Virus genome (UHGV): UHGV-0869933
Length of the DNA stretch: 40,885 bases
Strand: one strand, 5' to 3'
Origin: a virus
In this document: positions 1-21,555 of the stretch, piece by piece
Position numbering within the stretch: the first letter of the stretch is position 1
Layout: each line of letters opens with the position of its first letter
Program-made: the position numbers and the translations under genes
Notes under the pieces: generated by a model
Seen by the model: only the letters and a program-made list of their open reading frames with translations
The model's database searches: none
Told to the model about the DNA's origin: nothing

Positions 1-88
1 TCTTTAGTCCTTCTGCACCCTGATTATTTCATCAGAAATTAATTATCACTCTGTTGTTATTCTGTACATCCCGGCAGGGTAAGTCTTG
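1..88. repeat. Left copy of an 88-bp perfect inverted repeat (partner at 740-827)
   Basis: Bases 1-88 are the exact reverse complement of 740-827, checked base by base; identity stops at 88/740. The window begins exactly at the repeat end, so the left boundary cannot be assessed. Confidence 0.9.
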
Positions 89-6624: not shown

Positions 6625-6659
6625 GCAGTTTACTCACATCTGACAAAATCAATATAAAC

Positions 6660-6868
6660 AGCCCCTCCGGAGAGGGGCTGGAGAGTGGCGCTATGTGCCA
6701 TTGCATGGTGCCGGGTGCCTCCCGGTGAATTCAGTACCAGCACCTGAATCCGCGATTATCCCATATACCTACTCGCTGATTACCCCTCCGCACAGGGGGA
6801 TTCACCATGCGAAATTTTTTAACAAACTTCCCGCCGGCCAGACAATAATCGCCAGCCTGAATTATGAG
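6660..6868. repeat. Copy A of a diverged roughly 210-bp non-coding element
   Basis: Shares with copy B the hairpin AGCCCCTCCGGAGAGGGGCT, GCATGGTGCC-N-CCTCCCGGT-AATTCAG, GGGGGATTCACCATGCGA and a CCAGACAAT-ATC tail. Confidence 0.7.
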
Positions 6869-7132
6869 CAACGTGGCATTTTACGGGAAAACTGTTTTCT
6901 GCAGTAAAAAGGCCCGCCGGAGCGAGCCTGGAAGGATAGCGGTCATGTGATGCCGGTTTCCCGGTAACTCAGCATCGGTATCTGAGTCAACGTTTTCTCT
7001 ACTGGGTCATTTCCGATACGTTCCGCCTTCCGGCAGACTTTCATCACGTCAGAAAATATAGCACCCTGAGTAACAGGACAGTACTCAGAATTCAGGAAAC
7101 TGTGACACATCCTGCACAGAAAAGCCCCTCCG

Positions 7133-7347
7133 GAGAGGGGCTGAAGTATAGCCTAATTTCTGTCTGTCGCATGGTGCCAGGGGCCTCCCGGTAAATTCAG
7201 CCTGTCTACTGAATTTGCATGTTCTCTGGATCATACACTTTGCCAGATGCCCCGCCGCTGAGGGGGATTCACCATGCGATGTAATTTTTAACAAATTCTC
7301 CGGCAGCCAGACAATCATCAAGCTGTGGAATTGTGAGGTATTTAAAA
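7133..7347. repeat. Copy B of the same diverged element
   Basis: Same block order and orientation as copy A with scattered substitutions and indels; no conserved ORF across the two copies. Confidence 0.7.
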
Positions 7348-7570: not shown

Positions 7571-7647
7571 TGGACCGCCATCGGGGACTTGAACCCCGCG
7601 CAGCCAGCTTCGAAGGCTGGCGCTCTATCCCGATGAGCTAATGGCGG
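7571..7647 (-). tRNA. tRNA-Arg (anticodon UCG)
   Basis: Hand-folded cloverleaf: 7-bp acceptor CCGCCAT/ATGGCGG, D-arm GCTC...GAGC, anticodon loop CTTCGAA, T-arm CGGGG-TTCAAGT-CCCCG, 3' CCA encoded. Confidence 0.8.
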
Positions 7648-7654
7648 TATGTGA

Positions 7655-7730
7655 TGGTGGCCCTTGCTGGATTTGAACCAGCGACCTGGCGATTATGAGT
7701 CGCTCGCTCTCACCACTGAGCTAAAGGGCC
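7655..7730 (-). tRNA. tRNA-Ile2/Met type (anticodon CAU), ileZ-like
   Basis: GGCCCTT-TA-GCTCAGTGGTGAGAGC-G-AGCGA-CTCATAA-TCGCC-AGGTC-GCTGG-TTCAAAT-CCAGC-AAGGGCC-A-CCA; resembles E. coli ileX and the phage ileZ. Confidence 0.8.
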
Positions 7731-13206: not shown

Positions 13207-13361
13207 GATTTTATCCTCAATTTGTTGATTTAGCAGACTTGCCTAACGCAAGCCTGATGGGCGCTTAAATTCTAATTCCTAAAATTTACCATATACGAAA
13301 GCAAAGTAAACCTTTTTAGTTAAAAAATCTCCTTTAAGGGAATTTTTTTCACAAAAAGAAC

Positions 13362-13381
13362 AAAACCCGCCGAAGCGGGTT
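13362..13381 (-). terminator. Terminator hairpin AACCCGC-CGAA-GCGGGTT (copy 2), downstream of hok
   Basis: Near-identical to the hairpin at 12014-12037; T-rich tail on the minus strand. Confidence 0.5.
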
Positions 13382-13449
13382 AAGTGCGGGTGCGTTGAGG
13401 ATGCCTGACACATCAGAGGTGGCGAGGGATTTCTCCCCCGCCAGGTCTC

Positions 13450-13605
13450 TTACTCCTCAGGTTCGTAAGCTGTGAAGACAGCGACCTCCGTCTGGCCGGT
13501 TCGGATTCGTACCTCGCAGAGGTCTTTCCTCGTTACCAGTGCCGTCACAATGACGGTTAAACAGATGACGATCAGGGCGATTAGCATCGCCTTTTGCTGC
13601 TTCAT
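13450..13605 (-). CDS. hokD: Hok/Gef-family type I toxin (HokD/RelF-like)
   Basis: MKQQKAMLIALIVICLTVIVTALVTRKDLCEVRIRTGQTEVAVFTAYEPEE matches the Qin HokD (RelF) sequence as I recall it; the track ORF carries a mok-like upstream extension. Confidence 0.85.
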   Translation of the reverse strand: MKQQKAMLIALIVICLTVIVTALVTRKDLCEVRIRTGQTEVAVFTAYEPEE

Positions 13606-13886
13606 AGCCTGCTTCTCCTTGCCTTTCGGCACGTAAGAGGCTAACCTACGTGTGTAGAGCATAGATATGGCCTCAGATTAATGTTAAGCGTCTTGCCGGA
13701 CGCGTAATGTTAACTGGGGCTTTTCTCTATCTGCCTTTTGGTGTTCATGCCTGAGACAGATAGCCTCAAGCACCCGCTGCAATTCTACTTAACTCTCCTT
13801 TTCCCGCAAACCGTTTTTATCCCCAGCGGCAAATCGAATACACCACCAGCGCCACCGCCATCGCAATTCCTACCGTTGTTAATGCT

Positions 13887-14240
13887 TCAGGCCAGGTCAT
13901 CGTAAATATCCTCCACGCTTATCAGTCCGTTCCGCTCCAGATAACTCATCGCCTTATCCGGTAATTTGCAGTCTGGCTTCGCTTTCCTCAGTTGCCAGGT
14001 TAACTGCTTTACCAGCATGGTTAACTCATCGACCAGACGCTGATATCCCACTGGTTTGTATTCATGCAATTTACCGGCTGGCTCTGCTGCCAGCGATACC
14101 AGTGCGATTTCCAGAACAGCAATATCCATCTTATATGTGCGGATGATGTCATGGTCGATTGTGCCCGGTATGCACAGTCTCTGTGCTTCAATAGTCTCCT
14201 CTGCGTGAGCTATTAACTGCTCTCTGGTAAAAGTCGTCAT
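13887..14240 (-). CDS. Hypothetical nin-region protein (MTTFT N-terminal family)
   Basis: 117 aa; N-terminus [15 protein letters not shown] paralogous to 14680-15120 and 14244-14405; ATGA coupling to the upstream gene. Confidence 0.5.
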
Positions 14241-21496: not shown

Positions 21497-21555
21497 TTTC
21501 TGGTGACGTTTGGCGGTATCAGTTTTACTCCGTGACTGCTCTGCCGCCCTTTTTA
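21497..21555 (+). ncRNA. dicF: DicF small regulatory RNA
   Basis: TTTCTGGTGACGTTTGGCGGTATCAGTTTTACTCCGTGACTGCTCTGCCGCCCTTTTT matches the E. coli DicF sequence as I recall it; lies immediately upstream of dicB. Confidence 0.8.

What the first reader, a model, noticed from the sequence alone, without database searches (positions are those of the whole stretch)
13450..13900. Hok/Gef type I toxin locus next to the inserted module, without relBE
The Hok peptide matches HokD/RelF as I recall it. In K-12 Qin this gene is followed by relE-relB, but here the downstream genes are unrelated small nin ORFs. An antisense Sok-like RNA and the mok overlap are expected around 13600-13700 but cannot be verified by eye. 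If the antisense partner is missing, the toxin may be regulated differently or silenced.
Basis: partly seen in the sequence, partly recalled or inferred. Interest (0 to 1): 0.4.

Follow-up and report, generated by a model that had tools for sequence, protein, structure and literature searches.

The report
Complete prophage hok/mok/sok toxin-antitoxin locus

Summary
The Hok peptide is real: CDS 13605..13450 on the minus strand, 51 aa, Pfam HOK_GEF E=1e-23, 100% identical to K-12 HokD.

Every regulatory part of a canonical hok/mok/sok type I toxin-antitoxin locus is also present, between about 13809 and 13362:
- a hok promoter;
- an mRNA leader that matches Rfam RF01794 at full length (117 bits, gathering score 59);
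- a 5' tac box that pairs with a 3' fbi box;
- an anti-SD that pairs with the mok SD;
- a 70-codon mok frame;
- a terminator;
- on the plus strand, a Sok gene (promoter TTGCCT-17-TAACCT, RNA 13654..~13724).

The Sok 5' end coincides exactly with the annotated sokW of phage 933W and sokC of K-12.

K-12 Qin's relB-relE-hokD shares only 13621..13362, so it lacks the leader, the mok start and Sok. The relBE-linked copy is therefore the truncated derivative, and "without relBE" is not an anomaly.

The locus is 93% identical to hokW-sokW of 933W/Sp5, which has been shown experimentally to be a type I TA that aids lysis on prophage induction. At least 2112 of 5426 complete E. coli genomes and about 100 sequenced phages carry it.

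Verdict: already known, low interest. The suspicion of a missing antitoxin is refuted in silico.

The parts
13782..13809 (-). Putative hok promoter: -35 TTGCGG (13809..13804), 16-nt spacer, -10 TAGAAT (13787..13782), 6 nt before the mRNA 5' end at 13775
   Evidence: Read from the sequence. The -10 and the start region are conserved in 933W and Rac-SA53. The site falls below the threshold of the generic promoter scan. Inferred, not shown.
13362..13775 (-). Full-length hok (mok-hok) mRNA, about 414 nt
   Evidence: The 5' end is set by alignment to Rfam RF01794 position 1 and by the conserved GGGUGCUUGAGGC start in 30 or more loci. The 3' end is set by the terminator. MFE -171 kcal/mol, z=-7.06 against shuffles.
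13600..13775 (-). hok mRNA leader (the region modelled by Rfam 'sok' RF01794, which is on the hok-sense strand)
   Evidence: 117.1 bits against a gathering score of 59, E=3.5e-26, model positions 1-157 of 157.
13764..13775 (-). tac (translational activator) box GGGUGCUUGAGG at the mRNA 5' end
   Evidence: Pairs with fbi in the MFE structure; P(unpaired)=0.01.
13716..13722 (-). ucb / anti-SD AAGCCCC
   Evidence: CCCC 13719-13716 pairs with the mok SD in the full-length MFE. It can pair with tac (7 bp plus a bulge) in the 3'-truncated RNA at only +2.1 kcal/mol above the MFE. The AGCCCC motif matches the anti-SD described for R1 (PMC9841398).
13671..13674 (-). mok Shine-Dalgarno GAGG, 8 nt before the mok ATG
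   Evidence: Read from the sequence. Same GAGG motif as the R1 mok SD (PMC9841398).
13450..13662 (-). mok reading frame, 70 codons, in frame with hok and sharing its stop codon
   Evidence: ORF list. 91% identical to the annotated MokW of 933W, 94% to Rac-SA53 Mok and 72% to K-12 MokC. Matches phrog_251 'MokW-like host killing', E=8e-33. The start codon lies 57-58 nt upstream of hok in all relatives.
13615..13620 (-). hok Shine-Dalgarno AAGGAG, 9 nt before the hok ATG; its complement forms part of the Sok -35 region
   Evidence: Read from the sequence. Invariant in 18 loci. P(unpaired) rises from 0.32 to 0.62 when fbi is removed.
13450..13605 (-). hok toxin CDS, 51 aa, identical to HokD
   Evidence: Pfam HOK_GEF E=1.2e-23. 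100% identical to K-12 HokD.
13387..13401 (-). fbi (fold-back inhibitory) box UCCUCAACGCACCCG in the 3' UTR
   Evidence: Duplex with the 5' end, dG -21.5 kcal/mol. It sits at the same UTR position (+45..65) in all intact relatives. Compensatory changes occur in the Photorhabdus locus and the R1-type locus.
13364..13381 (-). Intrinsic terminator of the hok mRNA (AACCCGCTTCGGCGGGTT followed by a T-run)
   Evidence: Terminator scan. Homology with K-12 hokD ends just after it.
13619..13647 (+). Sok promoter: -35 TTGCCT (13619-13624), 17-nt spacer, -10 TAACCT (13642-13647)
   Evidence: The block is identical to that of 933W sokW. It is conserved across 18 distinct loci. The primer used to make the sokW 'promoter-less' mutant (YO-421) alters exactly this TAACCT, and that mutant unmasks HokW toxicity (PMC8621323, Table 2 and Fig. 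1).
13654..13724 (+). Sok antisense RNA, 71 nt by homology to sokW (the U-run continues to about 13730): a 15-nt single-stranded 5' tail covering the mok start codon, then a long terminator hairpin (13669-13721)
   Evidence: Fold -29.7 kcal/mol, z=-5.26. The annotated sokW of 933W maps to 13654-13724. The annotated 5' end of K-12 sokC maps to 13654. The hairpin is conserved, with 3 compensatory pairs.

Best explanation
Window ~13809..13362 is a complete, canonical hok/mok/sok type I toxin-antitoxin cassette of the HokD/HokW subtype. It sits in the nin-equivalent part of the rightward operon of a lambdoid prophage integrated next to ompW.

Inferred mechanism, taken from the R1 paradigm and from hokW-sokW:
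1. A weak promoter makes a stable ~414-nt mRNA.
2. That mRNA is closed by 5' tac / 3' fbi pairing, with the mok SD held by the anti-SD.
3. Slow 3' trimming removes fbi, and the 5' end refolds (tac/ucb).
4. mok can then be translated, and hok translation is coupled to it.
5. Meanwhile the short-lived 71-nt Sok RNA, made from the opposite strand, pairs with the mok initiation region through its 5' tail. This blocks translation and triggers RNase III decay.
6. When Sok synthesis stops (loss of the element, or prophage induction), the 51-aa Hok peptide is made and damages the inner membrane.

Shown here: all sequence and structure elements are present, conserved and co-varying. Inferred: expression, toxicity, and the biological role (help with lysis on induction and/or prophage retention).
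For: - Toxin: Pfam HOK_GEF E=1e-23; identical to HokD.
- Leader: Rfam RF01794 full length, 117 bits.
- tac/fbi: paired in the MFE, z=-7; conserved in position, with compensatory changes across genera.
- Anti-SD: pairs with the mok SD.
- Open tac/ucb form: within 2.1 kcal/mol of the MFE after truncation.
- mok: 70 codons, 91-94% identical to annotated MokW/Mok.
- Sok: promoter and hairpin conserved in 18 loci; both ends coincide with annotated sokW and sokC.
- Overall identity: 93.3% to 933W hokW-sokW, about 95% to Rac-type phages.
- Experimental support for the homologue: HokW is toxic, sokW neutralises it, sokW disappears on mitomycin C induction, and deleting the locus halves phage release (PMC8621323).
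- R1 mechanism: PMC9841398.
Against: No expression or toxicity data exist for this exact copy. The generic sigma-70 scan did not call either promoter, because both have weak hexamers, as they do in R1. The MFE of the truncated RNA gives a local 5' hairpin rather than the tac/ucb form. Native chromosomal hokA, hokB and hokC loci were reported unable to mediate post-segregational killing (cited in preprint 10.1101/2025.08.07.668861). The Sok 5' tail differs from sokW at 6 of 19 nt, so the hokW results transfer by homology, not by identity.
Confidence: 0.9

Rival explanations
1. The locus is structurally complete but physiologically inert: a decaying passenger that no longer kills, like the K-12 chromosomal hok loci. 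Hok would never be produced at effective levels.
For: Chromosomal hokA, hokB and hokC loci failed to give post-segregational killing or rifampicin activation (cited in preprint 10.1101/2025.08.07.668861). Both promoters have weak consensus matches.
Against: No IS insertion, frameshift or deletion occurs in any element. All paired elements are kept with compensatory changes. The Hok protein is conserved at 100% across many prophages. The 93%-identical hokW-sokW is active in its native prophage (PMC8621323).
Confidence: 0.15
2. One reading: hok here lacks its antisense partner. It would be silenced, or expressed only by read-through from the upstream operon, as hokD/relF is in the K-12 relBEF operon.
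For: Hok is identical to K-12 HokD, whose locus does lack Sok and the leader. The gene is co-oriented with the prophage rightward operon, so read-through transcripts probably also exist.
Against: A full-length Rfam leader is present. The Sok promoter is identical to that of the functional sokW, and the Sok hairpin plus U-run is present. The homology break with K-12 lies exactly at the Sok -35, which shows that K-12 is the truncated copy.
Confidence: 0.03
3. The cassette serves mainly as an anti-phage (abortive infection / exclusion) or prophage-retention module for the lysogen, rather than as a lysis helper for the prophage itself.
For: [quoted passage not shown] The locus has moron-like autonomy, with its own promoter and terminator.
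Against: PADLOC has no Hok model hit. The preprint found no enrichment of hok near defence systems. The only direct data for this subtype point to a role in lysis and phage release (PMC8621323).
Confidence: 0.2

Closest known systems
hokW-mokW-sokW of Stx2 phage 933W / Sakai prophage Sp5
   Same: 93.3% nucleotide identity over about 400 nt. Same 51-aa Hok and 70-aa in-frame Mok architecture. Identical Sok promoter and hairpin, and the same Sok 5' end relative to the mok ATG. Both are carried by a lambdoid prophage.
   Different: Hok differs at 4 C-terminal residues (FTAYEPEE here, FVDYESEK in HokW). The Sok 5' tail differs at 6 of 19 nt. In 933W the cassette lies at the far right end beyond the tail genes, convergent with them. 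Here it lies between the replication genes and Q, co-oriented with the early-right operon.
hokD (relF) of the relBEF operon, cryptic prophage Qin, E. coli K-12
   Same: Identical Hok protein. The same hok SD, 3' UTR, fbi and terminator are present at about 99% identity over 13621..13362. It occupies the same general position in a lambdoid rightward operon, upstream of Q.
   Different: K-12 lacks the hok promoter, tac, ucb, the mok start, the Sok target and the Sok gene, and has relB-relE there instead. This window has all of those elements and no relBE.
hok/sok (parB) of plasmid R1, the mechanistic paradigm
   Same: The same set and order of elements: tac, ucb, mok SD GAGG, mok, hok SD, hok, fbi, and an antisense Sok with a 5' tail and a hairpin (PMC9841398).
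   Different: Hok is only about 44% identical (value for HokW against Hok; PMC8621323). In R1, mok starts 58 nt upstream of hok and is out of frame (start-codon positions in PMC9841398). Here it starts 57 nt upstream and is in frame. The Sok hairpin here is about 17 nt longer (77 nt against 60 nt between equivalent ends). The carrier is a prophage, not a plasmid.
hokC/mokC/sokC (gef) of the E. coli K-12 chromosome
   Same: An in-frame mok shares its stop with hok, and Sok starts 8 nt inside mok. Mok is 72% identical.
   Different: Chromosomal, not on a prophage. The K-12 copy has IS186 20 nt beyond its stop codon and so lacks fbi. SokC is shorter, at 59 nt.

Membership tests
[quoted passage not shown] | Small hydrophobic Hok/Gef toxin (about 50 aa, Pfam PF01848) | tested here: met
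   HOK_GEF E=1.2e-23, profile positions 1-42 of 42. 100% identical to HokD.
[quoted passage not shown] | Structured hok mRNA leader (Rfam RF01794 covariance model) immediately upstream of hok | tested here: met
   117.1 bits against a gathering score of 59, full model, ending at the hok ATG.
[quoted passage not shown] | Cis-encoded antisense Sok RNA gene, with its own promoter, a 5' single-stranded tail and a terminator hairpin, overlapping the mok translation initiation region | tested here: met
   In silico only. The promoter TTGCCT-17-TAACCT is conserved. The fold has z=-5.3. The hairpin shows covariation. Both ends coincide with annotated sokW and sokC. Transcription was not tested.
[quoted passage not shown] | Overlapping mok reading frame with its own SD, starting about 57 nt upstream of hok | tested here: met
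   70-codon ORF 13662..13450 with GAGG 8 nt upstream. 91-94% identical to annotated Mok proteins. The start position is conserved in all relatives, in frame 0 or +1.
[quoted passage not shown] | Long-range tac (5') / fbi (3') pairing that closes the full-length mRNA | tested here: met
   12 bp in the MFE, P(unpaired) 0.01. The position is conserved and the changes are compensatory in 20 distinct loci.
[quoted passage not shown] | Refolding after 3' processing (tac/ucb stem frees the mok SD) | tested here: inconclusive
   tac/ucb complementarity exists, and the enforced structure is only 2.1 kcal/mol above the MFE. The MFE itself gives a different local hairpin.
[quoted passage not shown] | Hok is toxic and Sok neutralises it; killing follows loss of Sok | not testable with these tools
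   Shown for the 93%-identical hokW-sokW (PMC8621323), not for this copy.
relBEF-type hokD (K-12 Qin arrangement) | hokD immediately preceded by relB-relE and lacking its own leader and Sok | tested here: not met
   No relE or relB homologue in the window. The leader and Sok are present. Homology with K-12 breaks at 13621.

The most novel reading that the evidence does not exclude
The Sok 5' recognition tail / mok start (13670-13656) is the fastest-diverging block among otherwise about 95%-identical prophage hokD/hokW cassettes. This may define non-cross-reacting specificity classes. Each of the several co-resident copies in a genome (median 2, up to 8-11 matching places per E. coli genome) would then answer only to its own prophage's Sok, and so would report the induction or loss of that particular prophage. 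The simpler alternative is relaxed constraint: any change in a cis-antisense pair is automatically compensated.
Probability: 0.25. Interest if true: 0.3.

Novelty: already known. Interest (0 to 1): 0.08.

Why it matters
It matters little beyond correct annotation. The result corrects a K-12-centred expectation: the relBE-linked, leaderless hokD of Qin is a rearranged remnant, and the complete mok/hok/sok cassette seen here is the standard prophage form. PGAP annotates only the hokD CDS in these genomes and leaves mok and Sok unmarked, so the coordinates given here add the missing parts. By homology with hokW-sokW, the cassette probably contributes to the timing of lysis on prophage induction.

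Tried and rejected
- **Generic promoter/terminator scan.** It found neither the hok nor the Sok promoter, because both have weak hexamers. It returned one chance-level minus-strand site (13687-13658; 0.8 expected). I did not use it as evidence in either direction.
- **Rfam 'sok' hit strand.** The hit is on the hok-sense strand, so the model describes the hok leader, not the antisense RNA as transcribed. I therefore tested the Sok strand separately.
- **First plasmid reference, L004.** It was IS-disrupted with a truncated hok and was dropped in favour of L007.
- **My recollection that mok must be out of frame with hok.** This holds for R1 (58-nt offset), K-12 mokB and some relatives. It does not hold for mokC or mokW, nor for the plasmid copy L007 used as the R1-type reference, where the offset is 57 nt and mok is in frame. 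The in-frame mok here is therefore not an anomaly.
- **MFE of the 3'-truncated mRNA.** It did not reproduce the textbook tac/ucb structure. Constrained folding shows that structure is nearly isoenergetic.
- **PADLOC.** It has no hit for Hok.
- These failed only because locus L002 had not yet been exported to the scripting machine. The comparison was made with DNA alignment instead.
- The large protein-database searches and the structure prediction were not run, because they were not needed.

Full report
**Observation**

On the minus strand, window 13605..13450 encodes a 51-aa peptide, MKQQKAMLIALIVICLTVIVTALVTRKDLCEVRIRTGQTEVAVFTAYEPEE.
- It matches Pfam HOK_GEF over the whole profile, E=1.2e-23.
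- It is 100% identical to K-12 HokD.
- RefSeq annotates it as hokD in near-identical genomes.

The toxin part of the finding is therefore confirmed.

**Context**

The closest genome is NZ_CM136155.1, 99.7% identical over 10 kb. Its annotation shows the window to be a lambdoid prophage integrated beside ompW.
- The immunity region has a LexA-family repressor gene facing a cro-like gene, with DicF and dicB on the plus strand.
- The rightward operon runs on the minus strand in this order: cro, ydaT, an O-like HTH gene, DUF977, ead/Ea22-like and other small ORFs, hokD, an HTH plus ImmA/IrrE peptidase pair, DUF968, rusA, and the Q antiterminator.
- hok therefore lies in the nin-equivalent region, co-oriented with the operon.
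- The small ORFs just upstream belong to phage families of unknown function (phrog_660, 3323, 1714, 5117).
- No RelE, RelB or Rem homologue exists anywhere in the window.

**Comparison with K-12**

In Qin the gene order is relB-relE-hokD-rem. Aligned with this window, the K-12 region is nearly identical only from window 13621 to about 13362, which is just past the terminator. Position 13621 is 16 nt upstream of the hok ATG, and upstream of it there is no similarity. Rfam finds no sok/hok-leader match anywhere in the 12-kb Qin segment, although it finds one in this window and in three plasmid loci.

K-12's hokD is therefore a truncated cassette captured behind relBE, and the copy here is complete. 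The breakpoint falls at the -35 box of the Sok promoter.

**The sense-strand elements**

Rfam RF01794 matches 13775..13600 on the hok strand at full length, with 117 bits against a gathering score of 59. The model is named 'sok', but it describes the hok-sense leader.
- **5' end.** The mRNA starts with GGGUGCUUGAGGC, a motif found at the equivalent place in more than 30 related loci.
- **Promoter.** TTGCGG-16-TAGAAT precedes the 5' end by the expected distance. This is inferred, because the generic scan did not reach its threshold.
- **Fold of the full-length RNA.** The 414-nt RNA 13775..13362 folds at -171 kcal/mol, z=-7.06. In that fold the first 12 nt (tac) pair with 13400..13388 (fbi) at P(unpaired)=0.01, and the mok SD (GAGG, 13674-13671) pairs with CCCC 13719-13716, the anti-SD or ucb.
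- **Conservation of tac/fbi.** Across 20 distinct relatives, the best partner of the 5' end lies at the same 3'-UTR position, 45-65 nt past the stop codon. The changes are compensatory: GGGCGC/GCGCCC in the Photorhabdus locus and GGCGC/GCGCC in the R1-type locus, against GGGUGC/GCACCC here. The pairing is lost only in the copy of the hokC locus (L022) whose K-12 counterpart has IS186 just past hokC.
- **Effect of removing fbi in silico.** The 5' end refolds and P(unpaired) of the hok SD rises from 0.32 to 0.62. The textbook tac/ucb stem is possible (7 bp plus a bulge) and costs only 2.1 kcal/mol more than the MFE. I rate that step inconclusive rather than shown.
- **Terminator.** An intrinsic terminator lies at 13381-13364.

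**mok**

An ATG at 13662, 8 nt after GAGG, opens a 70-codon frame that runs in frame into hok and shares its stop codon.
- The annotated mokW/hokW of 933W has the same arrangement (70 and 51 aa, same stop), as does mokC/hokC of K-12.
- The translated product is 91% identical to MokW, 94% to Rac-SA53 Mok and 72% to MokC, and it hits phrog_251 'MokW-like host killing'.
- Across relatives the start codon always lies 57 or 58 nt upstream of hok. It is in frame in some loci and +1 in others (mokB). In R1 the start-codon positions given in PMC9841398 imply a 58-nt offset.
- What is conserved is therefore the position, not the peptide. [quoted passage not shown]

**The antisense gene**

On the plus strand, TTGCCT (13619-13624), a 17-nt spacer and TAACCT (13642-13647) precede a G at 13654. 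The candidate RNA folds as a 15-nt free 5' tail, a long hairpin (13669-13721) and a U-run, at -29.7 kcal/mol with z=-5.26. Three independent anchors agree on the ends:
- The 5' end of K-12's annotated sokC aligns to 13654.
- The annotated 71-nt sokW of 933W maps through the alignment to 13654-13724.
- In both references Sok starts 8 nt inside mok, as it does here.

The promoter block is invariant or nearly so across 18 distinct loci. It is identical to that of sokW. In the Sp5 study, the primer that creates the 'promoter-less' sokW alters exactly this TAACCT, and the mutant unmasks HokW toxicity (PMC8621323).

The hairpin is conserved in shape in the R1-type, hokC-type, Photorhabdus, Pantoea and Kluyvera versions despite different sequences and lengths. 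Within the long-hairpin subgroup, three pairs show double compensatory changes.

**How common it is**
- At least 80% of 13330-13910 is present in 2112 of 5426 complete E. coli genomes.
- The K-12-type relE-hokD junction is present in 1165 genomes.
- 102 sequenced phages carry the cassette, including 933W, VT2-Sakai, Min27, Rac-type phages and mEp460.
- A recent survey reports that hok genes are enriched four-fold in prophages (preprint 10.1101/2025.08.07.668861).

**Mechanism and function**

The mechanism in the best explanation is the R1 paradigm (PMC9841398) applied to elements that I verified by sequence, structure prediction and covariation. Expression and toxicity of this copy are inferred.

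For biological role, the best evidence is the 93%-identical hokW-sokW of Sp5 (PMC8621323):
- HokW is toxic and localises to the inner membrane.
- sokW neutralises it, partly through RNase III and Hfq.
- sokW RNA vanishes after mitomycin C treatment, and HokW production after it requires RecA.
- HokW appears about 1 h before the endolysin.
- Deleting the locus delays growth arrest by about 40 min and halves phage release.

Prophage retention and phage exclusion remain possible additional roles.

**Verdict**

This is an ordinary, already-described element. The antitoxin gene is intact, and the relBE-linked K-12 copy is the odd one.

Noticed in passing
window 13656-13670 (both strands): The Sok 5' tail / mok start is the most variable 15-nt block within the regulatory part of the transcript among 12 distinct hokD/hokW-type loci: mean pairwise difference 0.358, against 0.011 and 0.152 in the flanking blocks. 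The Sok tail here differs from the sokW tail at 6 of 19 nt while the hairpin is identical. This could mean orthogonal specificities, or simply relaxed constraint.
   Followed up: partly
window 13817-13900 (-): An unannotated 27-codon hydrophobic ORF ([27 protein letters not shown]) overlaps the stop of the upstream gene and ends just before the hok promoter. It is conserved just upstream of hokW in 933W (77% aa) and in two E. coli/Shigella loci (96%). It may be a small membrane peptide that travels with the cassette.
   Followed up: partly
   Evidence: Pfam Peptidase_M78, phrog_87, and weak PADLOC capH/capP and RmrA hits. In strain E7476 an IS1 sits where the peptidase gene is. In Qin and Rac-SA53, rem follows hok instead. 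The slot downstream of hok is therefore variable.
   Followed up: partly
window 13465-13467 (-), A at 13466: The Hok Tyr47 codon UAC is followed by G, giving UACG, the TadA-type A-to-I editing motif. [quoted passage not shown] The site is intact here.
   Followed up: no
window 6650-6838 and 7114-7307 (-); 7574-7647 and 7658-7730 (-); 21498-21549 (+): Rfam finds two tandem STnc100 sRNA copies (132 and 138 bits), two tRNA genes downstream of the Q/methyltransferase region, and a perfect DicF sRNA in the leftward operon.
   Followed up: no
L024, L029 (genome contigs); H77 (phages): HokD-type sequences (96-100% amino-acid identity over the part matched) sit on 275-bp and 431-bp contigs labelled Acinetobacter idrijaensis and Xanthomonas pisi. 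A 97%-identical cassette occurs in an 'Actinobacillus phage' record. These look like contamination or host mislabelling rather than real host range.
   Followed up: no
L034 (Kluyvera sp. CHPC 1.2972), L013, L050: The relB-relE-hok arrangement is not confined to K-12. It also occurs, with 97-99% identical RelBE, upstream of a Hok that is 70% identical to this one in a Kluyvera genome, and in a degraded form in another E. coli locus.
   Followed up: no
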